A stretch of DNA of 29,410 nucleotides from a virus. Positions within the stretch are counted from its first letter, which is position 1. Every line of letters starts with the position of its first letter. This document shows positions 157 to 23,998 of this stretch, piece after piece. The stretch lies in the UHGV virus genome UHGV-0009628; one strand, 5' to 3'. The notes under the pieces are model-generated. The model was not told the DNA's origin, did not search any database, and saw only the letters and a list, made by a program, of their open reading frames with translations. A program made the position numbers and the translations under genes.

Positions 157-1170
157 TTACTCTACTGTGGACACTGTGTGGACACTCTCGGCTTCAGTAC
201 CACCTCTTAGCGGATTAAGAGAAATGGCGTCCTGAAGGTACTCTGGCGCAAAATGAGCGTAAACCATAGTTTGCTCAATCCGCGTGTGACCTAGTATCCG
301 TTGTAGCGTGATAATACTTCCTCCATTAATCATGAAATGAGTGGCAAAGCTGTGCCTTAGTGCATGTGTGGCTTGCCCCGTTGGCAAATCCGGTTTTATT
401 GCTTTCATTGTTCGTCTGAAGCGAGGGTAATCAGCATCAGGGAATAAAAAACCTCGTTTGTTATCCGCGATCATTTTGGCAACAGCCTCTGAGATCGGGA
501 CGGTGCGTGGTTTGTTTGTTTTCGTTTTAACAAACGTGACGCGGTTATGGATGATATTTTCTGCTTTCAAACGAGCTGCTTCTCCCCAACGTGCTCCTGT
601 ACTCAGGCAAAGAATCGCAATCTTTTTGTTGTCGCCGTCAAGTGCTGCAAGCAGTAAGGCAATTTCTTCCTGTGTGAGATAGCCTGTTTCTGGTTTTTCC
701 TCCTTAAGCCTCTTTGTCCCTCTGATAGGGTGCTCACCAAAGAATAACTCCGCTTCAATCAGGGCTGTAAACATGCCGCTAATACATGTTAAATCACGAT
801 TGATACTCGAAGGTTTAATACCCTGACTTCTTCGGGTGGCGCAGTACTGGCTGATAAGGGATTTCGTGATTTGAAATGCGCATGGGTCATTCGTTATTTT
901 TGTGAAGATTTCAATTTTTCCAAGATTAGATTTCCCATGCTCTTCGTGTTTACCCTTTAAATCCCACCAGATCTGTGTCAGTTCCGACAGACGTCGTTTG
1001 TCTGTTGGTTTTGATAGCCATTCTTTATTGTGGTGGTTGTACAACGTGTATTTTTCGAAAGCGACAGCTTCGCTTTTCTTATCAAACTTCCTACGGATAC
1101 GTTTTCCGTTACGTCCAGTAGGGCGGATGTCCACTTCATATCGACCATCATCGAGTTTTTTGATTGCCAT
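157..1170 (-). CDS. int: Tyrosine integrase (P2 Int family)
   Basis: 337 aa, ATG start. C-terminal catalytic region HALRHSFATHFMINGGSIITLQRILGHTRIEQTMVYAHF carries the R..H-x-x-R...Y signature of tyrosine recombinases. Position adjacent to att core. Confidence 0.95.
   Translation of the reverse strand: MAIKKLDDGRYEVDIRPTGRNGKRIRRKFDKKSEAVAFEKYTLYNHHNKEWLSKPTDKRRLSELTQIWWDLKGKHEEHGKSNLGKIEIFTKITNDPCAFQITKSLISQYCATRRSQGIKPSSINRDLTCISGMFTALIEAELFFGEHPIRGTKRLKEEKPETGYLTQEEIALLLAALDGDNKKIAILCLSTGARWGEAARLKAENIIHNRVTFVKTKTNKPRTVPISEAVAKMIADNKRGFLFPDADYPRFRRTMKAIKPDLPTGQATHALRHSFATHFMINGGSIITLQRILGHTRIEQTMVYAHFAPEYLQDAISLNPLRGGTEAESVHTVSTVE
166..184. promoter_or_regulatory. Two direct TGTGGACA repeats (166-173, 177-184) one helical turn apart; candidate Int arm-type binding sites
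   Basis: Exact 8-bp direct repeat with 11-bp periodicity inside the 3' end of int, next to the att core. Assignment to Int binding is from recollection of P2 attP architecture and is an inference. Confidence 0.4.
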
Positions 1171-3474: not shown

Positions 3475-3746
3475 GTATTCGTATTGAAATTGGCGAACGT
3501 TATGTCGTTACCAGTGACAGCTTTCAGTTTATTCTCCACGAGAAAAAGAGAGCGGAAAGCGGTAAAAACGCCGGTCAGGAATGGCTGGCGGTGGTTGGTT
3601 ATTATCCGAAATTAAGCCAGCTCGTTTCCGGCCTGATGCATCACGATATTCTGACCGGAAGCGCAAAGTCTTTTGCTGATTTAAACGCGCAGGTTGAGCA
3701 ACTCAGCAGGCGTTGTTCAGAGGCTTTTGGCTCATATGGCCGTTAA
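3471..3746 (+). CDS. Early-operon hypothetical protein (orf83 position)
   Basis: 91 aa, ATG with GGAGAA SD; stop overlaps the start of A. Confidence 0.6.
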   Translation: MSIRIEIGERYVVTSDSFQFILHEKKRAESGKNAGQEWLAVVGYYPKLSQLVSGLMHHDILTGSAKSFADLNAQVEQLSRRCSEAFGSYGR

Positions 3747-5811
3747 AGCCTCCGGGCGTTTTGTCCCTCCTTCAGCATTTGCTGCAGGCACCGGTAAGGC
3801 GTTTACCGGTGCTTATGCATGGAACGCGCCACGCGAGGCCGTCGGGCGCGAAAGACCCCTTACACGTGACGAGATGCGTCAGGTGCAAGGTGTTTTATCC
3901 ACGATTAACCGCCTGCCTTACTTTTTGCGCTCGCTGTTTACTTCACGCTATGACTACATCCGGCGCAATAAAAGCCCGGTACACGGGTTTTATTTCCTCA
4001 CATCCACTTTTCAGCGTCGTTTATGGCCGCGCATTGAGCGTGTGAATCAGCGCCATGAAATGAACACCGACGCGTCGTTACTGTTTCTGGCAGAGCGTGA
4101 CCACTATGCGCGCCTGCCGGGAATGAATGACAAGGAGCTGAAAAAGTTTGCTGCCCGTATCTCATCGCAGCTTTTCATGATGTATGAGGAACTCAGCGAT
4201 GCCTGGGTGGATGCGCATGGCGAAAAAGAATCGCTGTTTACGGATGAGGCGCAGGCTCACCTCTATGGTCATGTTGCTGGCGCTGCACGTGCTTTCAATA
4301 TTTCCCCTCTCTACTGGAAAAAATACCGTAAAGGGCAGATGACCACGAGGCAGGCATATTCTGCCATTGCCCGTCTGTTTAACGATGAGTGGTGGACTCA
4401 TCAGCTTAAAGGCCAGCGTATGCGCTGGCATGAAGCGTTACTGATAGCTGTCGGGGAGGTCAATAAAGACCGTTCTCCTTATGCCAGTAAACACGCCATT
4501 CGTGATGTGCGTGCGCGCCGCCAGGCAAATCTGGAATTTCTTAAATCGTGTGACCTTGAAAACAGGGAAACCGGCGAGCGCATCGACCTTATCAGTAAGG
4601 TGATGGGCAGTATTTCTAATCCTGAAATTCGCCGGATGGAGCTGATGAACACCATTGCCGGTATTGAGCGTTACGCCGCCGCAGAGGGTGATGTGGGGAT
4701 GTTTATCACGCTGACCGCGCCGTCAAAGTATCACCCGACTCGTCAGGTCAGAAAAGGCGAAAGTAAAACCGTTCAGCTTAATCACGGCTGGAACGATGAG
4801 GCATTTAATCCAAAGGATGCGCAGCGTTATCTCTGCCGTATCTGGAGCCTGATGCGCACGGCATTCAAGGATAATGATTTACAGGTCTACGGTTTGCGAG
4901 TCGTCGAGCCACACCACGACGGAACGCCGCACTGGCATATGATGCTTTTTTGTAATCCACGCCAGCGTAACCAGATTATCGAAATCATGCGTCGCTATGC
5001 GCTCAAAGAGGATGGCGACGAAAGAGGAGCCGCGCGAAACCGTTTTCAGGCAAAACATCTTAACCGGGGCGGTGCTGCGGGGTATATCGCGAAATACATC
5101 TCAAAAAACATCGATGGCTATGCACTGGATGGTCAGCTCGATAACGATACCGGCAGGCCGCTGAAAGATACTGCTGCGGCTGTTACCGCATGGGCGTCAA
5201 CGTGGCGCATCCCGCAATTTAAAACGGTTGGCCTGCCGACAATGGGGGCTTACCGTGAACTACGCAAATTGCCTCGCGGCGTCAGCATTGCTGATGAGTT
5301 TGACGAACGAGTTGAGGCTGCACGTGCCGCCGCAGACAGTGGTGATTTTGCGTTGTATATCAGCGCGCAGGGTGGGGCAAATGTTCCGCGTGATTGCCAG
5401 ACTGTCAGAGTCGCCCGTAGCCCGTCGGATGACGTTAACGAGTACGAGGAAGAAGTCGGGAGAGTGGTCGGCATTTACGCGCCGCATCTCGGCGCGCGTC
5501 ATATTCATATCACCAGAACGACGGACTGGCGCATTGTGCCGAAAGTTCCGGTCGTTGAGCCTTTGACTTTAAAAAGCGGCATCGCCGCGCCTCGGAGTCC
5601 TGTCAATAACTGTGGAAAGCTCACTGGTGGTGATACTTCGTTACCGGCTCCCACACCTTCTGAGCACGCTGCAGCAGTGTTGGATTTGATTGATATAGGG
5701 GTGGTTAGTTGGAATGATGCTGAGGTGATGACAGTTCTTAGGAAGAGATTAAAAGATTACTCACGGGAATTGATGGTATTCAAAGGAAGGGCTAGCCAAC
5801 GCCCAATCTGA
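3736..5811 (+). CDS. A: Rolling-circle replication initiator A (phiX174 gpA-like nickase)
   Basis: 691 aa from ATG at 3736 (track start 3694 is TTG). Motifs GTPHWHMMLF (HUH-type metal-binding His pair) and AAGYIAKYISKNIDG (catalytic Tyr pair) typical of RCR initiators; position after orf83 as in P2. Confidence 0.9.
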   Translation: MAVKASGRFVPPSAFAAGTGKAFTGAYAWNAPREAVGRERPLTRDEMRQVQGVLSTINRLPYFLRSLFTSRYDYIRRNKSPVHGFYFLTSTFQRRLWPRIERVNQRHEMNTDASLLFLAERDHYARLPGMNDKELKKFAARISSQLFMMYEELSDAWVDAHGEKESLFTDEAQAHLYGHVAGAARAFNISPLYWKKYRKGQMTTRQAYSAIARLFNDEWWTHQLKGQRMRWHEALLIAVGEVNKDRSPYASKHAIRDVRARRQANLEFLKSCDLENRETGERIDLISKVMGSISNPEIRRMELMNTIAGIERYAAAEGDVGMFITLTAPSKYHPTRQVRKGESKTVQLNHGWNDEAFNPKDAQRYLCRIWSLMRTAFKDNDLQVYGLRVVEPHHDGTPHWHMMLFCNPRQRNQIIEIMRRYALKEDGDERGAARNRFQAKHLNRGGAAGYIAKYISKNIDGYALDGQLDNDTGRPLKDTAAAVTAWASTWRIPQFKTVGLPTMGAYRELRKLPRGVSIADEFDERVEAARAAADSGDFALYISAQGGANVPRDCQTVRVARSPSDDVNEYEEEVGRVVGIYAPHLGARHIHITRTTDWRIVPKVPVVEPLTLKSGIAAPRSPVNNCGKLTGGDTSLPAPTPSEHAAAVLDLIDIGVVSWNDAEVMTVLRKRLKDYSRELMVFKGRASQRPI

Positions 5812-6036: not shown

Positions 6037-7167
6037 ATGAAAAAAATAACCAAGAGAGAAAGAGAGAGAGATATTTTACGATCCTATTTACATCGTACAG
6101 GAAGAGATGTTGTATCTGCAGGGCGCTCTAAGATTAATCCTATTTCAAAAGCATCAAAAATAAATCGTTGGATAAATGCGCAAATTAAAGATGGATTAAA
6201 TTGCGAAATAAGGAAAAATAGAGACCTTTTCCTTACTTTACCTAAAAAGATGAACTTTTCAAGTAATTACCATCGTACAATGCAAGCCATACAAACGATT
6301 AGGCATCTTACAGGGCGGAAGATATTTAATAACCAATGTTACCGTCTTTGTTTTGTTGACTTTTCGAAGATTGAATATATTTCTGCATCTGCCGCATTGG
6401 TATTGACCGCGGAATTATCAAAATGGGATGATTCGGTAAGGCAACGCATTCGCCCAAAAGTGAAAACGTGGAATAAAAACATACTCTCTCAATTTGATGA
6501 GTTGGGTTTTTTTGACTTATTTAGAAATAAAGATAGTTTTGAGCTTGAAAAAGAAAAGGAACCAAGTAATATCCGTTTTGTTAAGTATATGAAAGGACAT
6601 TTACATGATGATGAAAAAACTCAGCATTTAAAAAAAGAAATAAAGCGTATTGTGGGAGAAGACCTTGGTAAATGGACTTTCCTATACAGTGGTTTGTCCG
6701 AAGCTATTACAAATGTTGTTCATCATGCTTATCCAGATAATAAAGGCTATCATGAGCATGATAAAAAATGGTATTTAACTGCTTCATATGATAGTTCAAG
6801 TAGAATAATAAAAGTAGTGTTTTATGATCAAGGTATTACAATTCCTGGGTCTTTGCCGGAATCTAAACTCCATGAAAAGGTTTTAAATTACCTTTCGAAG
6901 TTACCGCTTGCAGAACGAAAAAGAGATGAACAATTGTTAAAGGCTGCAGTTGAAATCAAACGTTCTAGTACGGGGGAAGAGGATCGGGGTAAAGGCTTGC
7001 AGGACTTGTTGGAGTTCATAAAGCAACGTGGTGAAGGTTATCTTTCAATTATGAGTGGTAAAGGCCTTTACAAATACTCACAACATGATAAAAAATCTGA
7101 GGTAAAATCAGTAAGCTTCGCTCTGCCTGTTTGTGGTACACTTATAGTATGGAGTACAAAGCTATGA
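6037..7167 (+). CDS. Cargo ORF1: GHKL-superfamily ATPase/kinase-like protein (C-terminal half resembles RsbW/SpoIIAB-type anti-sigma-factor kinases), N-terminal about 200 aa unknown
   Basis: 376 aa, ATG with strong SD; about 33% GC against a GC-rich backbone. N-box-like LSEAITNVVHHAY (aa 220-232), G1-like YDQGITIPG (aa 262-270), G2-like RGKGLQDLLEF (aa 317-327). Motif-level recognition only. Confidence 0.6.
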   Translation: MKKITKRERERDILRSYLHRTGRDVVSAGRSKINPISKASKINRWINAQIKDGLNCEIRKNRDLFLTLPKKMNFSSNYHRTMQAIQTIRHLTGRKIFNNQCYRLCFVDFSKIEYISASAALVLTAELSKWDDSVRQRIRPKVKTWNKNILSQFDELGFFDLFRNKDSFELEKEKEPSNIRFVKYMKGHLHDDEKTQHLKKEIKRIVGEDLGKWTFLYSGLSEAITNVVHHAYPDNKGYHEHDKKWYLTASYDSSSRIIKVVFYDQGITIPGSLPESKLHEKVLNYLSKLPLAERKRDEQLLKAAVEIKRSSTGEEDRGKGLQDLLEFIKQRGEGYLSIMSGKGLYKYSQHDKKSEVKSVSFALPVCGTLIVWSTKL

Positions 7168-7553
7168 TTACTAGATTGGTTGCTAGCCTCATGAAAACAT
7201 TGAAGATTGGTTCAGAGTTCTCGAAAGTTCCCAGAGGCCGCTATCGTACTGACGGGACAGCAAGTGGTGAACGGTTTAGAGAAGATTTCTTAAGAAAGCG
7301 TCTAAGCTTGCTTTCTGCTGGGGAAAAATTGCAGATAGTCATCGATGATGATGTCGAAGGATATGGTTCGTCTTTTTTGGTGGAGGGCTTTGCGGGCATG
7401 GTAAAATATGGATATATGCATGCCAATGAGTTATTGTCTAAAATTGAAATTAAATATACTAATCCTGATTTTGATTTCTATAAAAAGAAAATAGAACAAT
7501 ATATCAACGAGGCGCAGTTTAATTCGAAACGATATGAGCCAACAGTCGAATAA
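7164..7553 (+). CDS. Cargo ORF2: small STAS-like (DUF4325-like) protein, candidate partner of the ORF1 kinase/ATPase
   Basis: 129 aa from ATG at 7164 (ATGA overlap with ORF1 stop, GGAG SD 10 nt upstream; track start 7131 is TTG). Segment SGERFREDFLRKRLSLLSAGEKLQIVIDDDVEGYGSSFLVEGFAGMV resembles the anti-sigma-antagonist/STAS pattern around the phospho-Ser. Confidence 0.5.
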   Translation: MITRLVASLMKTLKIGSEFSKVPRGRYRTDGTASGERFREDFLRKRLSLLSAGEKLQIVIDDDVEGYGSSFLVEGFAGMVKYGYMHANELLSKIEIKYTNPDFDFYKKKIEQYINEAQFNSKRYEPTVE

Positions 7554-8196
7554 TCCGATGTTTATTTTAGGTGAGGGTTCTGGTGAGTTCTCACCTAGTT
7601 TGCTTTTTATCAAGAAGGATAATGAAGAAGGCCTGAGTGCTACTCATGCAGTTAAGGATATTAATACGATAATTGAAGTAGCTAGTTCTAATATTGTTGA
7701 TGCAATACGGCATCCACCTGAAACGCCTATTTTATCGTCATCACTTATTACGGCTCTTATTAGTACTATTTGTGCGGCCACTGCCGCATTTGCATATAAT
7801 AAAGTCCATTGGCGTTCTGTTGTTAAACGGGAGACTAAAACCAAACTCCTGGAGAGTATTTCAGATGTGGTTAATGAGTTGCGTTCTGATGCTATTAGTT
7901 ATTGGTTGAAGGGGTATTCAAAAAAGTCGGCGAAGTCTCTCTTAGAAGAGGAAATGAGAATTAAGGCGAGTTTAAATATAATAAATTCGACTATAACAAT
8001 ATATGTTCAGCAAGAGTCGCGATGGAAAAGAAAGGATATTGAAGCTCAGTTAAGGGTTTTTCATGACGAACTTTTTGATATTATAACAGGTGATGATTTT
8101 GAGTCTCAGGCAAGGAAGCAGGATAAGGCAAAGGTTTCTGCTATTTCTACAAAGTGTGTGGCTTTTCGCGTTTTATTAAATACCATCAAGTTTTAA
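7534..8196 (+). CDS. Cargo ORF3: single-pass membrane protein, candidate effector
   Basis: 220 aa; overlaps ORF2 by 20 nt; one hydrophobic stretch PILSSSLITALISTICAATAAFAY (aa 65-88) followed by a charged, likely helical C-terminal region. No recognisable catalytic motif. Start could be 7558 instead. Confidence 0.5.
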   Translation: MSQQSNNPMFILGEGSGEFSPSLLFIKKDNEEGLSATHAVKDINTIIEVASSNIVDAIRHPPETPILSSSLITALISTICAATAAFAYNKVHWRSVVKRETKTKLLESISDVVNELRSDAISYWLKGYSKKSAKSLLEEEMRIKASLNIINSTITIYVQQESRWKRKDIEAQLRVFHDELFDIITGDDFESQARKQDKAKVSAISTKCVAFRVLLNTIKF

Positions 8197-18746: not shown

Positions 18747-19655
18747 ATGCCGATTATCGACCTGAACCAGCTACCCGCACCGGATGTGGTCGAGGAGCTG
18801 GACTTTGAAACCATTCTTGCCGAACGCAAGGCGACACTGATTTCCCTTTACCCGGAAGACCAGCAGGAGGCGGTCGCCCGTACCCTGACGCTGGAATCCG
18901 AGCCTCTCGTCAAACTGCTGGAGGAAAATGCGTATCGCGAGCTTATCTGGCGTCAGCGTGTGAATGAGGCTGCACGGGCGGTGATGCTGGCCTGTGCAGC
19001 CGGTAATGACCTTGATGTTATTGGTGCCAATTACAACACCACGCGCCTGACTATCACCCCGGCAGATGATTCGACCATCCCGCCGACACCGGCAGTGATG
19101 GAGTCTGACACTGATTATCGTCTGCGTATTCAGCAGGCGTTTGAGGGCTTAAGCGTCGCCGGGTCGGTGGGAGCCTATCAGTATCATGGTCGCAGTGCCG
19201 ACGGGCGTGTCGCGGATATCTCTGTCACCAGTCCGTCTCCGGCCTGCGTCACTATCTCTGTGCTGTCACGTGAAAATAACGGCGTCGCATCCGAAGACCT
19301 GCTGGCCGTGGTGCGTAACGCCCTTAATGGCGAGGACGTCAGGCCGGTGGCCGACCGCGTGACCGTGCAGTCTGCCGCCATTGTTGAATATCAGATAAAC
19401 GCCACGCTTTACCTTTACCCTGGTCCCGAAAGCGAACCCATCCGCGCTGCTGCCGTGAAAAAACTGGAAGCGTATATCACGGCACAGCACCGGCTGGGGC
19501 GCGACATCCGTCTGTCTGCCATTTATGCCGCTTTGCATGTGGAGGGCGTGCAGCGTGTCGAGCTGGCCGCACCACTGGCTGACATCGTGCTCAACAGTAC
19601 GCAGGCGTCTTTCTGTACCGAATACCGCGTCGTGACCGGAGGCTCGGATGAGTGA
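18747..19655 (+). CDS. J: Baseplate wedge protein J
   Basis: 302 aa, same length and position as P2 J. Confidence 0.88.
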   Translation: MPIIDLNQLPAPDVVEELDFETILAERKATLISLYPEDQQEAVARTLTLESEPLVKLLEENAYRELIWRQRVNEAARAVMLACAAGNDLDVIGANYNTTRLTITPADDSTIPPTPAVMESDTDYRLRIQQAFEGLSVAGSVGAYQYHGRSADGRVADISVTSPSPACVTISVLSRENNGVASEDLLAVVRNALNGEDVRPVADRVTVQSAAIVEYQINATLYLYPGPESEPIRAAAVKKLEAYITAQHRLGRDIRLSAIYAALHVEGVQRVELAAPLADIVLNSTQASFCTEYRVVTGGSDE

Positions 19656-20259
19656 TTCGCGTCTGCTGCCGACCGGCTCATCACCGCTTGAAATTGCTGC
19701 CGCGAAAGCCTGTGCGGAAATTGAAAAAACGCCGGTCAGTATTCGTGAGCTGTGGAACCCGGACACCTGCCCGGCAAATCTGCTGCCGTGGCTGGCGTGG
19801 GCCTTTTCGGTCGACAGGTGGGATGAAAAGTGGCCGGAAGCGACAAAACGCGCCGTTATCCGCGATGCCTATTTCATCCACTGTCATAAGGGTACTGTCG
19901 GCGCAATCCGGCGTGTTGTGGAGCCGCTCGGCTATCTGATTGAAGTGAGGGAGTGGTGGCAGCTCAACGAGGAGCCGGGGACGTTCCGTATCGTTGTTGG
20001 CGTGCTTGAGCAGGGTATTACCGAAGAAATGTATCTGGAGCTGGAACGTCTCGTTGCTGATGCAAAACCGGCGAGCCGCCATCTGACGGGACTGGCTATC
20101 AGTTTAAGTACAACCGGCAACATTTTTGCCGGAACGGGATGCTATCACGGTGACGCCCTGACGGTTTATCCCTACACCCCGGAGGCCATTATTGTCGGAG
20201 GGGATTATTTCCCGGCCTCGGTCATTCATTTAATTGATAACCTGAGAGTAAACGCATGA
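19648..20259 (+). CDS. I: Baseplate protein I
   Basis: 203 aa, between J and H as in P2; N-terminus MSDSRLLPTGSSPLE. Confidence 0.85.
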   Translation: MSDSRLLPTGSSPLEIAAAKACAEIEKTPVSIRELWNPDTCPANLLPWLAWAFSVDRWDEKWPEATKRAVIRDAYFIHCHKGTVGAIRRVVEPLGYLIEVREWWQLNEEPGTFRIVVGVLEQGITEEMYLELERLVADAKPASRHLTGLAISLSTTGNIFAGTGCYHGDALTVYPYTPEAIIVGGDYFPASVIHLIDNLRVNA

Positions 20260-22067
20260 CAGTGAAATACTACGCCATTCTGACTAATCAGGGCGCAGCA
20301 CGACTGGCTAACGCGACGATGCTCGGCAGTAAGCTGAATCTGACGCAAATGGCCGTTGGTGATGCGAATGGTGTCTTGCCGACACCAGACCCGGTACAGA
20401 CAAAACTGATTAACCAGAAACGCATTGCACCGCTGAATCTTCTGAGTGTTGACCCTAACAATCAGAGCCAGATTATTGCGGAGCAAATTATCCCTGAAAA
20501 CGAGGGAGGATTCTGGATCCGTGAGATTGGGCTTTATGATGATGAAGGCGTACTCATTGCGGTGGCGAACTGCCCGGAAACGTACAAACCGCAGTTGCAG
20601 GAAGGCAGTGGTCGTACCCAGACTATCCGCATGATTCTGGTTGTCTCGAATACCGAAGCCATCACGCTGAAAATCGATCCGTCGGTGGTACTGGCGACCC
20701 GTAAATATGTGGATGACAAAATCTCAGAACACGAACAGTCACGACGACACCCGGATGCATCGCTGACCGCAAAAGGTTTTACTCAGTTAAGCAGCGCAAC
20801 CAACAGCACGTCTGAAACACTGGCCGCAACGCCGAGAGCGGTAAAGATCGCGTATGACCTTGCTAACGGGAAATATACTGCACAGGACGCGACCACAGCG
20901 CGAAAAGGTCTTGTCCAGCTCAGTAGTGCCACCAACAGCGATTCTGAAACGCTTGCGGCAACGCCAAAGGCGGTAAAGACAGCATATGACCTTGCTAACG
21001 GGAAATATACCGCACAGGACGCGACCACAGCGCGAAAAGGTCTTGTCCAGCTCAGTAGCGCCACCAACAGCGATTCTGAAACGCTTGCGGCAACGCCAAA
21101 GGCGGTAAAGACAGCATATGACCTTGCTAACGGGAAATATACCGCACAGGACGCGACCACAGCGCGAAAAGGCCTTGTCCAGCTCAGCAGCGCCACTAAC
21201 AGCACGTCAGAAACGCAGGCTGCCACACCAAAAGCCGTGAAGGCTGTATATGACCTTGCCAATGGAAAACAACCTGCCGACGCCATACTGACCGCACTGG
21301 CAGGCCTTGCCACTGCGGCAGACAAACTTCCGTATTTTACGGGGAATGATACAGCCAGCCTGACAACCCTGACTAACGTTGGACGGAATATTCTGGATAA
21401 AGCAAGCACACAGGCGGTTATTCAATATCTTGGTCTGAGCGATGCAAGTGGATACGTTGGACGCTGGCTGAATACCCGGGTTTTCACCTCATCAGGTACG
21501 TACACCCCGACGCCAGGAACAAAACGGATCAGGGTCACAATAACGGGCGGCGGTGGCGGAGGGGGCGGCTGCAAGGCTACATCCAATAATGAAACGTTTT
21601 TCGGTGCTGGCGGTGGGGCCGGTGGAACAATAATTTCAATAATGACCCCGACACAGAATAGTTATCCAGTCACTATCGGCGCAGGTGGGGCCGGTGGTGT
21701 TAGTGCGACGAACGGCACCAGTGGCGGGAATAGCGTATTTGCATCGTTAATTGCTCCTGGTGGCGCAGGTGGCGGGAAAGTGGGAGTTACAAATACAAAC
21801 GGCGGTAACGGAGGTGTGCCGAATACTGGCGATATCCGCATCACTGGTGGAAATGGAGGCGACGGTCAGTCCGGAAATATCAGCGTCAGCGGTGAAGGCG
21901 GAACATCGTACTGGGGTGGCGGTGGACGCGCAGGCGCTGGCGGTGGCGTTAGCGGCAAGGCATATGGTTCAGGCGGAGGTGGTGCATACGATGCCGGTTA
22001 TAGCGGAACCAGTATGACGGGCGGGAAAGGCGCTGCAGGGATTTGTATTATCGAGGAGTTTGCATAA
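20256..22067 (+). CDS. H: Tail fibre protein H, with internal tandem fibre repeats and a glycine-rich distal domain
   Basis: 603 aa; conserved N-terminal baseplate-attachment region, four tandem 44-aa repeats, then a C-terminal domain dominated by GG/GGxGG runs. Confidence 0.9.
   Translation: MTVKYYAILTNQGAARLANATMLGSKLNLTQMAVGDANGVLPTPDPVQTKLINQKRIAPLNLLSVDPNNQSQIIAEQIIPENEGGFWIREIGLYDDEGVLIAVANCPETYKPQLQEGSGRTQTIRMILVVSNTEAITLKIDPSVVLATRKYVDDKISEHEQSRRHPDASLTAKGFTQLSSATNSTSETLAATPRAVKIAYDLANGKYTAQDATTARKGLVQLSSATNSDSETLAATPKAVKTAYDLANGKYTAQDATTARKGLVQLSSATNSDSETLAATPKAVKTAYDLANGKYTAQDATTARKGLVQLSSATNSTSETQAATPKAVKAVYDLANGKQPADAILTALAGLATAADKLPYFTGNDTASLTTLTNVGRNILDKASTQAVIQYLGLSDASGYVGRWLNTRVFTSSGTYTPTPGTKRIRVTITGGGGGGGGCKATSNNETFFGAGGGAGGTIISIMTPTQNSYPVTIGAGGAGGVSATNGTSGGNSVFASLIAPGGAGGGKVGVTNTNGGNGGVPNTGDIRITGGNGGDGQSGNISVSGEGGTSYWGGGGRAGAGGGVSGKAYGSGGGGAYDAGYSGTSMTGGKGAAGICIIEEFA
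20772..21299 (+). repeat. Four tandem 132-bp in-frame repeats inside H (units start 20772, 20904, 21036, 21168)
   Basis: Units 2 and 3 nearly identical at DNA level; each encodes KGLVQLSSATNSDSETLAATPKAVKTAYDLANGKYTAQDATTAR-type 44-aa tail-fibre repeats. Confidence 0.9.
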
Positions 22068-22477
22068 TGAATGCGTCATATGCAGTTATTGAAAATGGGA
22101 TGGTTGTTAATGTCATTGTCTGGGATGGTGAGGATGAATTCACTGTGCCGGATAATCTGCAGCTCATTAATATTTCTGATATCAGTGAGCAGCCCGGAAT
22201 CGGCTGGGCGTATTCAGACGGGGTATTTACTGCACCACCCACTCCGGAACGTTCTCATGATGAACTGGTAGCTGACGCTGAACAGAAAAAACAGTCGTTG
22301 ATAGACGCAGCAATGGTCAATATCAGCGTGATTCAGTTAAAGCTGCAGGCCGGGCGCAAACTGACGCAAGAAGAAACTACCCGACTTAACGTTGTGCTGG
22401 ATTATATCGACGCTGTGACGGCAACAGATACCAGCACCGCACCGGATGTCATCTGGCCTGAACTGCAGGAGGCGTAG
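22067..22477 (+). CDS. G: Tail fibre assembly chaperone
   Basis: 136 aa from ATG at 22067 (TAATG overlap with H stop; track start 22043 is TTG); directly downstream of H as in P2. Confidence 0.8.
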   Translation: MNASYAVIENGMVVNVIVWDGEDEFTVPDNLQLINISDISEQPGIGWAYSDGVFTAPPTPERSHDELVADAEQKKQSLIDAAMVNISVIQLKLQAGRKLTQEETTRLNVVLDYIDAVTATDTSTAPDVIWPELQEA

Positions 22478-22685
22478 GCCATTCAATATCTGACGTACCG
22501 GAAGTATCGGACCGCTCCGGTGCGTACAGGTAATCCAGCCACAAATTATATTGCGCCAGTACCTCAGACCTGCCGGGCTATTGCTTACTGTTCATGTATT
22601 TATTGGCCTGATTAATCAGTAGCTGTCTTTCTGGTCGTGTGGATCCTGCAAATCCTGAATGGTCGGAAATACCGCAATAAATACA

Positions 22686-22710
22686 GGCGGGCTGATTGCC
22701 CGCCTTTTTT
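22686..22710 (+). terminator. Rho-independent terminator ending the V-to-G tail operon
   Basis: GGCGGGC-TGATT-GCCCGCC hairpin followed by TTTTTT on the plus strand. Confidence 0.8.
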
Positions 22711-22807
22711 ATCTGTTGTTTCATCCCCTGACCAGCCAGGACAAATAGCATCTCATGCCCTGCACAACTGAAAATACCACTCACCCATTAACCACGGAGT
22801 TAAACGG

Positions 22808-23998
22808 ATGAGTGACTATCATCACGGCGTGCAGGTGCTGGAGATTAACGACGGCACACGCGTCATTTCCACCGTATCCACTGCCATTGTCGGCATGGTC
22901 TGTACGGCCAGCGATGCGGATGCGGAAACCTTCCCCCTCAATAAACCGGTGCTGATTACCAATGTGCAGAGCGCAATTGCAAAGGCCGGTAAAAAAGGCA
23001 CGCTGGCGGCGTCGTTGCAGGCCATCGCTGACCAGTCAAAACCGGTCACCGTTGTTGTACGTGTGGAAGACGGCACCGGCGAAGACGAAGAAACGAAACT
23101 TGCGCAGACCGTTTCCAATATCATCGGCACCACCGACGAAAACGGTCAGTACACCGGACTGAAAGCCCTGCTGGCGGCGGAGTCGGTAACCGGTGTTAAA
23201 CCGCGTATTCTCGGCGTGCCGGGACTGGACACCAAAGAGGTGGCTGTTGCACTGGCATCAGTCTGTCAGAAGCTGCGCGCTTTCGGATATATCAGTGCAT
23301 GGGGCTGTAAGACCATTTCCGAGGTGAAAGCCTACCGCCAGAATTTCAGCCAGCGTGAGCTGATGGTCATCTGGCCGGATTTCCTCGCATGGGATACGGT
23401 CACCAGTACCACCGCCACCACGTATGCCACCGCCCGTGCGCTGGGCATGCGCGCTAAAATCGACCAGGAGCAGGGCTGGCATAAAACGCTGTCCAATGTC
23501 GGGGTGAACGGTGTTACCGGCATCAGCGCATCCGTCTTCTGGGATTTGCAGGAGTCCGGCACCGATGCTGACCTGCTTAACGAGTCAGGCGTCACTACGC
23601 TGATTCGCCGCGACGGTTTCCGCTTCTGGGGTAACCGTACCTGCTCCGATGACCCGCTGTTCCTCTTTGAAAACTACACCCGCACCGCGCAGGTGCTGGC
23701 CGATACGATGGCTGAGGCGCACATGTGGGCGGTGGACAAGCCCATCACCGCAACGCTGATTCGCGACATCGTTGACGGCATCAATGCCAAATTCCGTGAG
23801 CTGAAAACAAACGGCTATATCGTGGATGCGACCTGCTGGTTCAGCGAAGAATCCAACGATGCGGAAACCCTCAAGGCCGGAAAACTGTATATCGACTACG
23901 ACTATACCCCGGTGCCTCCTCTCGAAAACCTGACCCTGCGCCAGCGTATCACCGATAAATATCTGGCAAATCTGGTCACCTCGGTTAACAGCAATTAA
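22808..23998 (+). CDS. FI: Contractile tail sheath protein
   Basis: 396 aa, same length and position as P2 FI. Confidence 0.92.
   Translation: MSDYHHGVQVLEINDGTRVISTVSTAIVGMVCTASDADAETFPLNKPVLITNVQSAIAKAGKKGTLAASLQAIADQSKPVTVVVRVEDGTGEDEETKLAQTVSNIIGTTDENGQYTGLKALLAAESVTGVKPRILGVPGLDTKEVAVALASVCQKLRAFGYISAWGCKTISEVKAYRQNFSQRELMVIWPDFLAWDTVTSTTATTYATARALGMRAKIDQEQGWHKTLSNVGVNGVTGISASVFWDLQESGTDADLLNESGVTTLIRRDGFRFWGNRTCSDDPLFLFENYTRTAQVLADTMAEAHMWAVDKPITATLIRDIVDGINAKFRELKTNGYIVDATCWFSEESNDAETLKAGKLYIDYDYTPVPPLENLTLRQRITDKYLANLVTSVNSN

What the first reader, a model, noticed from the sequence alone, without database searches (positions are those of the whole stretch)
21480..22477. Glycine-rich distal domain of H with its own chaperone G: a swapped host-range module
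The last 190 or so residues of H are dominated by GG/GGxGG runs, unlike the N-terminal part, and the downstream chaperone G is short (136 aa). The distal fibre plus chaperone is the classic mosaic unit exchanged between phages, so this prophage probably recognises a different receptor from P2.
Basis: partly seen in the sequence, partly recalled or inferred. Interest (0 to 1): 0.45.

Follow-up and report, generated by a model that had tools for sequence, protein, structure and literature searches.

The report
Swapped glycine-rich tail-fibre tip and chaperone
This P2-like prophage has replaced the receptor-binding end of its tail fibre, and the helper protein that folds it, with a glycine-rich cassette shared with unrelated E. 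coli phages; this is a well-documented example of an ordinary kind of phage mosaicism.

Summary
H (20256-22067, 603 aa) has 5.6% glycine in residues 1-396 and 32% in residues 397-603. That end is a Pfam Gly_rich_2 domain. G (22067-22477) is a 136-aa Caudo_TAP chaperone.

The swap is supported and can be mapped more precisely.
- **Left junction:** similarity to P2 H ends at 21434, and P2 G shows no BLASTP similarity. From 21429 the DNA is 91-93% identical to P1-like plasmids and to Mu/e14-type prophages, and 68% identical to jumbo phage Goslar.
- **Junction site:** 21429-21434 lies inside a degenerate Pin/Gin/Cin-type crossover site that encodes QYLGLSD.
- **Extent:** the cassette runs to about 22633. 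It includes a relic of an inverted second chaperone gene (22449-22633, minus strand). A 52-nt relic of the displaced P2-type G 3' end follows (22629-22680), then the operon terminator.
- **Origin:** in E. coli PCN061 the same tip and chaperone form one half of an e14-type invertible segment.
- **Structure:** AlphaFold models of tip and chaperone both find the Pam3 gp24-gp25 fibre-chaperone complex as best PDB match.

The receptor is unknown, so "a different receptor from P2" is plausible but untested. This is a new member of a known kind, of modest interest.

The parts
20256..22067 (+). Tail fibre gene H, 603 aa. It has a P2-type proximal part and a foreign distal part.
   Evidence: ORF. Pfam finds Phage_tail_fib at 1-150, four Phage_fiber_2 repeats, and Gly_rich_2 at 412-600. 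Residues 1-396 are 58% identical to P2 H residues 1-383.
20256..20705 (+). N-terminal tail-collar (baseplate attachment) domain of H, residues 1-150.
   Evidence: PF12571, E 2.9e-62. The DNA is 96-97% identical to several P2-like E. coli phages over positions 1-461 of the query.
20793..21259 (+). Tandem array of 132-nt units (3.5 copies), which encode the 44-aa Phage_fiber_2 shaft repeats.
   Evidence: TRF reports period 132 with 89% matches. Pfam finds four repeats here against two in P2 H.
21420..21445 (+). Degenerate Din-type (Pin/Gin/Cin) crossover-like site, ATTCAATATCTTGGTCTGAGCGATGC, encoding QYLGLSD. The left recombination junction (21429-21434) lies within it.
   Evidence: It matches 19 of 26 bases of the left inverted-repeat site of the e14-like segment in L010. 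The K-12 e14 site TTGGTTTGGGAGAAGG has been shown experimentally (PMC12529663). P2 H similarity ends at 21434, and similarity to L002, L004 and L005 begins at 21429.
21429..22067 (+). Distal receptor-binding module of H, residues 392-603: a short linker followed by a TNF-like plus glycine-rich (Gly_rich_2) tip.
   Evidence: DNA identity is 91-93% to L002, L005 and L010, and 68% to Goslar. The AF2 model has pLDDT 95.5. The best PDB fold match is Pam3 gp24, TM 0.71, E 5.5e-10. A profile search against PDB finds Pam3 gp24 at E 6e-23.
22067..22477 (+). Gene G: a 136-aa tail fibre assembly chaperone cognate to the glycine-rich tip.
   Evidence: Caudo_TAP, E 1e-20. The AF2 model shows an N-terminal beta domain (3-55) and a C-terminal helical domain (64-118). 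The only meaningful PDB fold hit is the Pam3 chaperone gp25, E 1.1e-3. It lies downstream of the same tip in every context examined. dN/dS is 0.12-0.49.
22449..22633 (-). Relic (pseudogene) of the 3' part of a second, inverted tail fibre assembly gene (tfa'). It overlaps the end of G by 29 nt.
   Evidence: It is collinear with the tfa' gene of L010 (6035-6240), within a single 92.9% BLAST match spanning 21415-22633. The short ORFs here read ...WLDYLYAPERSDTSGTSDIEWPTPP and ...ERQLLINQANKYMNSKQ. PGAP annotates the same stretch in L003 and L004 as a partial tfa.
22629..22680 (+). Relic of the last 56 nt, including the stop codon, of the displaced P2-type G gene.
   Evidence: It is 89% identical to P2 G 5720-5775 in L001, with a 4-nt deletion, E 2e-16. 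It reads ...GRVDPANPEWSEIPQ* against P2 ...SRVDPANPEWPEMPQ*.
22685..22713 (+). Rho-independent terminator of the V-W-J-I-H-G operon.
   Evidence: The stem has 8 pairs (7 of them G-C), a 5-nt loop and a T run. It lies directly after the relic stop codon of P2-type G.

Best explanation
The fibre gene H of this P2-like prophage is a chimera. Codons 1-391 encode the P2-type baseplate-attachment domain and repeat shaft. From codon 392 onward a 1.2-kb foreign cassette (21429 to about 22633) supplies three things: a TNF-like/glycine-rich receptor-binding tip of the Pam3 gp24 / Pfam Gly_rich_2 type, its cognate two-domain chaperone G, and a dead stub of a second, inverted chaperone gene. The cassette replaced the ancestral distal part of H and almost all of the ancestral G, of which only the last 52 nt survive. 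Its structure and its left junction indicate that it came from one half of a Din-invertase (Pin/Cin/Gin-type) invertible host-range segment of the kind still present in e14-like prophages. The junction lies within a 6-nt interval inside a crossover-type site that also exists at the same place in P2 H. There is no invertase and no second site here, so the module is fixed.

The proposed mechanism is inferred from homologues. The N-terminal beta domain of G binds the side of the tip. Its conserved C-terminal helical domain promotes trimerisation that starts at the fibre C-terminus. The mature trimeric tip then contacts a surface receptor through the variable loops between the conserved glycine motifs, and so sets an adsorption specificity different from that of P2.
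For: Shown:
- **Abrupt loss of P2 similarity.** It ends at residue 396 / nt 21434, and G has no BLASTP similarity to P2 G.
- **Same left edge in independent backbones.** The edge is 21429 in the P1-like plasmid L002, the Mu/e14-type prophages L005-8 and the P2-like L004. It is 21415 in L010 and 21424 in Goslar. Sequence upstream of LGL(S/G/A)D differs completely between these contexts.
- **Relic of P2-type G** at 22629-22680.
- **Invertible-segment context in L010.** The tip and tfa are followed tail-to-tail by tfa' and a gp53-like alternative tip. The segment is flanked by 18-nt inverted repeats (5011-5028 and 6811-6828) and a truncated Pin-like recombinase. The e14 repeats are experimentally validated (PMC12529663).
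- **Hybrid site in the window.** Its left half, ATATC, matches P2 H, and its right half, GGTCTGAGCGAT, is closest to L002 and L004.
- **Fold.** The tip model has pLDDT 95.5 and best matches Pam3 gp24. The G model's only meaningful match is Pam3 gp25, from the same complex, 7YPX.
- **Tip and chaperone are coupled.** All five phage groups that match the N-domain of G have a Gly_rich_2 fibre end directly upstream. They are Goslar, Salmonella phage Arash, Pseudomonas phage Aura, Pantoea phage AH07 and Microbacterium phage WilliamStrong.
- **Purifying selection.** dN/dS is 0.12-0.49.
- **C-terminal position.** The domain is at the C-terminus in 132 of 136 diverse representatives.
- **Conserved Gly motifs alternate with hypervariable, indel-prone segments**.

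From the literature: the Pam3 gp24 glycine-rich tip is proposed to recognise the host, and gp25 binds it through its N-domain (PMC9608196). Host-range mutations map to the glycine-rich domain of the LPS-binding Klebsiella phage fibre TFP_Y (PMC12671077).
Against: - No receptor, adsorption or assembly data exist for this E. coli tip.
- The structures are monomer predictions of a protein that is expected to be a trimer.
- The G fold match is marginal (E 1.1e-3, TM 0.36) and there is no sequence-level PDB hit.
- The crossover-like site in the window is degenerate (19/26). It encodes a motif (LGL.D) conserved at protein level, so its presence at the junction could reflect homologous recombination in a conserved linker rather than invertase action.
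- The direction and donor of the transfer are not resolved. Identity to L002 and L005 differs between tip and G, which indicates further recombination inside the module.
- PGAP marks the G homologue as a pseudogene in two genomes, although the ORF is full length and widely conserved.
Confidence: 0.85

Rival explanations
1. The locus is a working invertible host-range switch, like Mu G, P1 C or e14 P, that alternates between two fibre tips.
For: An inverted tfa' fragment lies tail-to-tail with G. A crossover-like site sits at the junction between the constant and variable parts of H. The same module is part of such a segment in L010.
Against: The window has only one, degenerate site. A search for AAACCNNGGTTT with one mismatch finds no partner downstream. 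There is no alternative tip and no recombinase gene between G and the sheath gene at 22808. The tfa' fragment is truncated and its reading frame is broken.
Confidence: 0.03
2. The junction arose by ordinary homologous or illegitimate recombination within the conserved LGL linker and the conserved tfa 3' region. No site-specific recombinase was involved, and the crossover-like site is incidental.
For: The linker is conserved at protein level in all contexts. The last 186 nt of G are 80-88% identical to many lambdoid and P2-like tfa genes, which offers homology for exchange. The right junction, where tfa' meets the P2 G relic, joins sequences in opposite orientation and so looks illegitimate.
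Against: The junction interval 21429-21434 contains the central dinucleotide of the site. The site is a hybrid of a P2-type left half and a donor-type right half, which is also what invertase-mediated exchange would produce. The data cannot discriminate between the two routes.
Confidence: 0.45
3. The glycine-rich region is not a receptor-binding domain. It might be an enzyme, since homologues are annotated as carbohydrate kinase, or a disordered spacer, or the module might be decaying in a cryptic prophage.
For: Many 308-aa homologues are named carbohydrate kinase in NCBI. PGAP flags the G homologue as a pseudogene in L003 and L004.
Against: Those proteins carry only PF21722 and sit in the fibre position after Mu gp48-like baseplate genes, followed by a Caudo_TAP gene. 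The model is confidently folded and matches a solved phage fibre tip. The ORFs are intact and under purifying selection. The domain is C-terminal in fibre-like proteins in 132 of 136 representatives.
Confidence: 0.04
4. H and G diverged vertically from the P2 genes, with no swap.
For: Both G proteins belong to Caudo_TAP, and both H proteins share collar and repeat domains.
Against: The breakpoint is sharp. The module has over 90% nt identity to non-P2 elements. The P2 tip has a different Pfam domain (Gp34_trimer, with no Gly_rich_2). A P2 G relic lies downstream.
Confidence: 0.01

Closest known systems
Cyanophage Pam3 tail fibre gp24 with chaperone gp25 (PDB 7YPX, 7YFW; PMC9608196)
   Same: The fibre tip is a TNF-like beta-sandwich that continues into a lattice of glycine-rich motifs (GGGGxGG), placed at the extreme C-terminus. 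A chaperone gene follows, encoding an N-terminal beta domain and a C-terminal helical domain. A profile search gives E 6e-23 and Foldseek gives TM 0.71 for the tip. gp25 is the top fold hit for G.
   Different: Sequence identity is only about 28% for the tip and 21% for the chaperone. Pam3 gp24 is a minimal 280-aa fibre with a helical shaft. Here the tip is grafted onto a P2 collar domain and a Phage_fiber_2 repeat shaft. G belongs to Caudo_TAP with the enterobacterial conserved C-terminus. Neither stoichiometry nor release of G was tested here.
Bacteriophage P2 gpH/gpG (AF063097)
   Same: The operon position is the same (V-W-J-I-H-G-terminator-FI). Both have the N-terminal collar domain, Phage_fiber_2 repeats and the conserved ...LTALAGLATAAD..PYFTGND...YLGL linker. 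Both G proteins are Caudo_TAP.
   Different: The P2 tip (residues 384-669, with a Gp34_trimer domain) and the 175-aa G are replaced. There is no detectable similarity after YLGL. P2 has two shaft repeats and this H has four. P2 carries fun(Z) between G and FI, and this prophage carries nothing there.
Din-family invertible tail-fibre segments: e14 P segment (Pin), P1 C segment (Cin), Mu G segment (Gin)
   Same: The variable fibre tip and its tfa begin at a crossover site inside the fibre gene. Two tfa genes lie tail-to-tail. The identical module is in that arrangement in E. coli PCN061. The e14 sites are experimentally defined (PMC12529663).
   Different: The window keeps only one degenerate site and a stub of tfa'. 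It has no alternative tip and no invertase, so it is a fixed derivative and not a switch.
Salmonella phage S16 / T2-type gp38 adhesin polyglycine-II domain (PDB 6F45; cited in PMC9608196)
   Same: The design principle is the same: conserved glycine-rich motifs form a rigid scaffold that presents hypervariable receptor-binding loops (one search shows the same alternation here).
   Different: gp38 is a separate adhesin protein attached to gp37 and is not fused to the fibre. It did not appear among the sequence or Foldseek matches here, so homology is not shown.
Tail fibre plus chaperone modules shared between distant phage families (for example Alteromonas phages, PMC10579305; P1-like S/U; jumbo phage Goslar gp90/gp89)
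   Same: The fibre tip and its cognate chaperone move together between unrelated backbones. The Goslar pair is collinear with this one.
   Different: These cases differ in donor and recipient lineages. Here both junctions and the remnant of the displaced gene are still visible.

Membership tests
Pfam Gly_rich_2 (PF21722) / Pam3 gp24-type TNF-like + glycine-rich fibre tip | Profile match above the curated gathering score | tested here: met
   The score is 50.5 bits for whole H and 54.0 bits for the fragment, against a cut-off of 24.3. The match covers residues 412-600 and profile positions 2-224 of 226.
Pfam Gly_rich_2 (PF21722) / Pam3 gp24-type TNF-like + glycine-rich fibre tip | Homology to the solved member (Pam3 gp24), collinear to the C-terminus | tested here: met
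   A profile of 76 homologues against PDB finds 7YPX_A at E 6.3e-23, aligned through the final ...GIxIIEEF / GIIIVQYF strand. The single-sequence search is only weak, at E 0.15.
Pfam Gly_rich_2 (PF21722) / Pam3 gp24-type TNF-like + glycine-rich fibre tip | Fold: beta-sandwich plus a lattice of extended glycine-rich motifs | tested here: met
   The AF2 model has pLDDT 95.5 and pTM 0.91. Foldseek finds Pam3 gp24 at TM 0.71 and probability 1.0, then Bxb1 gp33 and the ALK/LTK TNF-like/Gly-rich domains. This is a prediction, not an experimental structure.
Pfam Gly_rich_2 (PF21722) / Pam3 gp24-type TNF-like + glycine-rich fibre tip | Located at the distal (C-terminal) end of a fibre protein | tested here: met
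   The domain ends 3 residues before the H stop codon. The same holds in 132 of 136 representatives.
Pfam Gly_rich_2 (PF21722) / Pam3 gp24-type TNF-like + glycine-rich fibre tip | Trimeric assembly and receptor binding by the distal loops | not testable with these tools
   Only family-level literature is available (PMC9608196; PMC12671077).
Caudo_TAP (PF02413) two-domain tail fibre assembly chaperones (TfaMu / Pam3 gp25 type) | Profile match above the gathering score | tested here: met
   The score is 74.6 bits against a cut-off of 22.1, covering residues 28-134. G also matches PHROG 188, tail fiber assembly protein, at E 1.5e-30.
Caudo_TAP (PF02413) two-domain tail fibre assembly chaperones (TfaMu / Pam3 gp25 type) | Gene immediately downstream of, and co-oriented with, the fibre gene | tested here: met
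   The G start overlaps the H stop (TAATG).
Caudo_TAP (PF02413) two-domain tail fibre assembly chaperones (TfaMu / Pam3 gp25 type) | Variable N-terminal fibre-binding beta domain plus conserved C-terminal helical domain | tested here: met
   The AF2 model has strands at 3-55 and helices at 64-118, with pLDDT 78.8. The top fold hit is Pam3 gp25, E 1.1e-3, which is marginal. The last 186 nt are shared with many tfa genes, whereas the N-domain matches only 13 phage records.
Caudo_TAP (PF02413) two-domain tail fibre assembly chaperones (TfaMu / Pam3 gp25 type) | N-domain specific for its own fibre tip (co-occurrence) | tested here: met
   In all five phage groups with a match to the N-domain, the upstream gene ends in Gly_rich_2.
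Caudo_TAP (PF02413) two-domain tail fibre assembly chaperones (TfaMu / Pam3 gp25 type) | Chaperone activity required for fibre folding | not testable with these tools
   This needs co-expression and folding assays.
Orthologue of P2 gpH/gpG along its full length | Collinear similarity of the distal part of H and of G to P2 | tested here: not met
   The alignment stops at residue 396. G against P2 G gives E 1.6. P2 H carries Gp34_trimer rather than Gly_rich_2.
Functional Din-invertase (Pin/Gin/Cin) invertible segment | Two inverted crossover sites flanking the segment | tested here: not met
   There is one degenerate site at 21420-21445 and no partner site.
Functional Din-invertase (Pin/Gin/Cin) invertible segment | Adjacent serine invertase gene and an alternative tip with its own tfa | tested here: not met
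   Only a 185-nt stub of tfa' remains, and the sheath gene follows at 22808. The intact arrangement is seen in L010.

The most novel reading that the evidence does not exclude
The Din-type crossover site embedded in the conserved YLGL linker of fibre genes may act as a universal docking point. Resident Pin-type invertases in E. coli (PinE, PinQ, PinR) could then catalyse the capture, in trans, of half of an invertible host-range segment by phages that encode no invertase themselves, such as this P2-like prophage. That would make site-specific recombination, and not only homologous recombination, a route of host-range cassette exchange between P2-, P1-, Mu/e14- and jumbo-phage lineages. The hybrid site (a P2-type left half and a donor-type right half, with the junction within 6 nt of the central dinucleotide) is what such an event would leave behind.
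Probability: 0.15. Interest if true: 0.55.

Novelty: new member of a known kind. Interest (0 to 1): 0.27.

Why it matters
Exchange of fibre tip and chaperone is the main way temperate phages change host range. It is also the basis for engineering P2/P4-derived delivery particles. This locus gives a naturally validated fusion point: codon 392, in the YLGL linker. It also shows which chaperone must travel with a glycine-rich tip. That tip occurs in about 7% of complete E. coli genomes (370 of 5426) and has no assigned receptor. The locus preserves both junctions and the remnants of the displaced gene, which makes it a clear example linking invertible host-range segments to fixed fibre mosaics. 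None of this changes current understanding, because the phenomenon is well established.

Tried and rejected
1. I first suspected that ATACCCGGGTTT at 21472-21483 was the invertase crossover site. I rejected this for four reasons. The count is not above chance. The sequence is a palindrome inside the conserved coding sequence VNTRVFT. It is present in all contexts (repeat I7). It lies 40 nt inside the module. The real site homologue is at 21420-21445.
2. I first took 22064 as the start of G, giving 137 aa. This was corrected to 22067, giving 136 aa.
3. A tblastn search of the tip against the phage collection found nothing. This is very probably because the low-complexity filter masks the query, so it is not evidence of absence. 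The DNA search had already found Goslar.
4. Single-sequence and profile searches of G against PDB sequences gave only spurious eIF3h matches. Only the fold search found Pam3 gp25.
5. A literature search for PF21722 found no paper.
6. The carbohydrate kinase annotation of homologues was considered and rejected as a legacy misannotation.
Full report
**Context.** The window is a P2-like prophage. It carries an integrase at 157-1170 (minus strand), replication gene A at 3694-5811, tail protein I at 19648-20259, and the sheath gene at 22808-23998. The gene order around the finding is V-W-J-I-H-G-FI, as in P2.

**Observation.**
- H is an intact 603-aa ORF at 20256-22067.
- Glycine makes up 5.6% of residues 1-396 and 31.9% of residues 397-603. 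Seventeen GG-or-longer runs, including a run of eight, all lie after residue 430, and only one lies before it.
- Pfam finds a tail-collar domain (1-150), four Phage_fiber_2 repeats, and a Gly_rich_2 domain (PF21722) at 412-600, well above its cut-off.
- The repeats are encoded by a 132-nt tandem array at 20793-21259.
- G is 136 aa (22067-22477). Its ATG overlaps the H stop codon (TAATG), and it has a GAGGAG ribosome-binding site. It is a Caudo_TAP protein.
Only the boundaries need adjusting.

**Comparison with P2.**
- H aligns with P2 gpH over residues 1-396 (58% identity, and nearly identical in the repeat and linker regions). The alignment stops at IQYLGLSD, and nothing after that aligns.
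- G shows no BLASTP similarity to P2 gpG, although both are Caudo_TAP.
- The distal part of P2 gpH carries a Gp34_trimer domain and no Gly_rich_2.

**Left breakpoint.**
- By blastn, P2 similarity ends at 21434.
- Similarity to four other contexts begins at 21429:
  - a P1-like 95-kb plasmid, whose 1544-aa P1 S-type fibre ends in the same tip;
  - 308-aa fibres of prophages with Mu gp44-48-type baseplates;
  - a P2-like prophage with a longer, different shaft;
  - at 68% identity, the 1324-aa fibre of jumbo phage Goslar.
- Protein alignments show unrelated sequence immediately upstream of LGL(S/G/A)D(A/S/T)SGYVGR and near-identity downstream. The 136-138-aa chaperone follows in every case.
- The module occurs in 370 of 5426 complete E. 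coli genomes and on 52 plasmids of about 90 kb.
- A query spanning the junction matches in full in 142 genomes. Elsewhere it matches only from position 286-300 onward (P1-like plasmids, stfP loci), or only over positions 1-142 of the query, within the shaft-repeat region.

**Right breakpoint and relics.**
- Downstream of G, on the minus strand, 22449-22633 is the broken 3' part of a second tail fibre assembly gene. It overlaps G by 29 nt. PGAP annotates the same stretch as a partial tfa in two related genomes.
- Directly after it, 22629-22680 on the plus strand is 89% identical to the last 56 nt of P2 gene G, including the stop codon, with a 4-nt deletion.
- The operon terminator follows at 22685-22705.
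- The cassette 21429 to about 22633 therefore replaced the distal part of H and nearly all of an ancestral P2-type G.

**Origin.**
- In E. coli PCN061 (L010) a single 92.9% match covers window 21415-22633.
- There the module is one half of an e14-type invertible segment. The order is: constant stfP part, crossover site, Gly-rich tip, tfa, inverted tfa', inverted gp53-like alternative tip, second crossover site, and a truncated Pin-like recombinase.
- The 18-nt inverted repeats (AAACCTTGGTTTGGGAGA and TCTCCCAAACCAACGTTT) contain the e14 P-segment repeats that have been shown experimentally to mediate Pin inversion (PMC12529663).
- The left site encodes NLGLGD, which is exactly the junction motif.
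- The window retains a 19/26 match to that site at 21420-21445. Its left half (ATATC) equals that of P2 H (CGAATATCTCGGTTTACAGGAA), and its right half equals that of the donor type.
- The junction is thus confined to CTTGGT (21429-21434), which includes the central dinucleotide of the site.
- These data cannot tell whether an invertase or homologous recombination made the junction. The window has no second site, no alternative tip and no invertase, so it is not a switch.

**What the parts are.**
- *Family size.* The tip family is large. It has 7849 representatives at 50% clustering with E <= 1e-3, and the domain is C-terminal in 132 of 136 checked.
- *Tip homology and fold.* A profile of 76 homologues finds the solved Pam3 fibre gp24 at E 6e-23. 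The AlphaFold model (pLDDT 95.5, pTM 0.91) best matches gp24 (TM 0.71). The next matches are Bxb1 gp33 and the TNF-like/glycine-rich domains of ALK/LTK.
- *Tip variability.* Conserved glycine motifs alternate with hypervariable, indel-prone segments at 441-449, 459-470, 507-514, 538-545, 560-566 and 579-587. This is the arrangement described for Pam3 gp24, in which the variable distal ends are proposed to bind the receptor (PMC9608196).
- *Chaperone fold.* G is predicted to have an N-terminal beta domain and a C-terminal helical domain. Its only meaningful fold match is Pam3 chaperone gp25, from the same complex (marginal E-value).
- *Chaperone conservation.* The C-terminal 62 codons of G are shared at 80-88% nt identity with many lambdoid and P2-like tfa genes. 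The N-domain is rare in the phage collection, with 13 records.
- *Tip-chaperone coupling.* In every phage group examined the N-domain lies directly downstream of a Gly_rich_2 fibre end. This includes a Gram-positive Microbacterium phage.
- *Selection.* Tip and G are under purifying selection between backbones, with dN/dS 0.12-0.49.

**Mechanism (inferred).** The N-domain of G binds the side of the nascent tip. Its conserved C-domain drives trimerisation from the C-terminus. The mature trimer exposes the variable loops to the receptor. The receptor is unknown. A Klebsiella phage fibre with this domain binds LPS, and its host-range mutations map to the glycine-rich domain (PMC12671077). P2 itself uses LPS (PMC9594776). 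A different specificity is therefore likely, but a different receptor class is not established.

**Verdict.** The case is an unusually legible example of an established phenomenon, the exchange of tail fibre tip and chaperone between phages (for example PMC10579305). It is a new member of a known kind and of modest interest.

Noticed in passing
window 6037-8196 (+): Three ORFs (376, 140 and 220 aa) form a low-GC island (34-38% against about 56% for the prophage) between replication gene A and the portal-side genes. This is the position of the old/tin accessory locus in P2, a known anti-phage defence hotspot (own knowledge). There is no PADLOC hit. The only Pfam match is a STAS-like DUF4325 in the 140-aa ORF. 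It may be an uncharacterised defence cassette.
   Followed up: partly
window 20793-21259: The 132-nt tandem repeats encoding the 44-aa Phage_fiber_2 units vary in copy number between relatives. There are four repeats here and two in P2. L004 has a 721-aa H with extra repeats. Fibre length therefore appears to vary by repeat slippage or recombination.
   Followed up: partly
L003 4672-4998, L004 4648-4998; proteins P0004-P0120: There are annotation problems in public records. PGAP marks the full-length 136-aa chaperone as an N-terminally truncated pseudogene. Hundreds of 308-aa fibres carrying only Gly_rich_2 are named carbohydrate kinase.
   Followed up: yes
window 21468-21487: A near-perfect palindrome, (C/G)TGAATACCCGGGTTTTCAC, lies inside the tip coding sequence (WLNTRVFT). 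It is conserved in all contexts (repeat I7). It resembles an invertase core, but it is not at the breakpoint. Any significance beyond coding is unknown.
   Followed up: partly
L011 2501-2677 (Salmonella phage Arash); L014 2498-2794 (Microbacterium phage WilliamStrong): Some phages carry only the N-terminal tip-binding domain of the chaperone, as a 58-aa or 98-aa protein without the conserved Caudo_TAP helical domain, downstream of a Gly_rich_2 fibre. This suggests that the two chaperone domains can function or evolve separately.
   Followed up: no
window 21432-22474 versus L002 and L005: There is mosaicism inside the module. The tip is closer to the P1-like plasmid (95.9% nt) than G is (87.3%). 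The reverse holds for the Mu-type prophage (88.6% for the tip and 94.4% for G). Recombination therefore also occurs between the tip and the chaperone.
   Followed up: no
L005-L008 7604-8671 (-); L013 2954-4066 (-): In the Mu-baseplate-type prophages and in Pantoea phage AH07, an acyltransferase gene (Acyl_transf_3 / OpgC-like) lies directly after the Gly-rich fibre and chaperone. It may be an O-antigen-modifying lysogenic conversion gene. That would fit an LPS-directed fibre.
   Followed up: no
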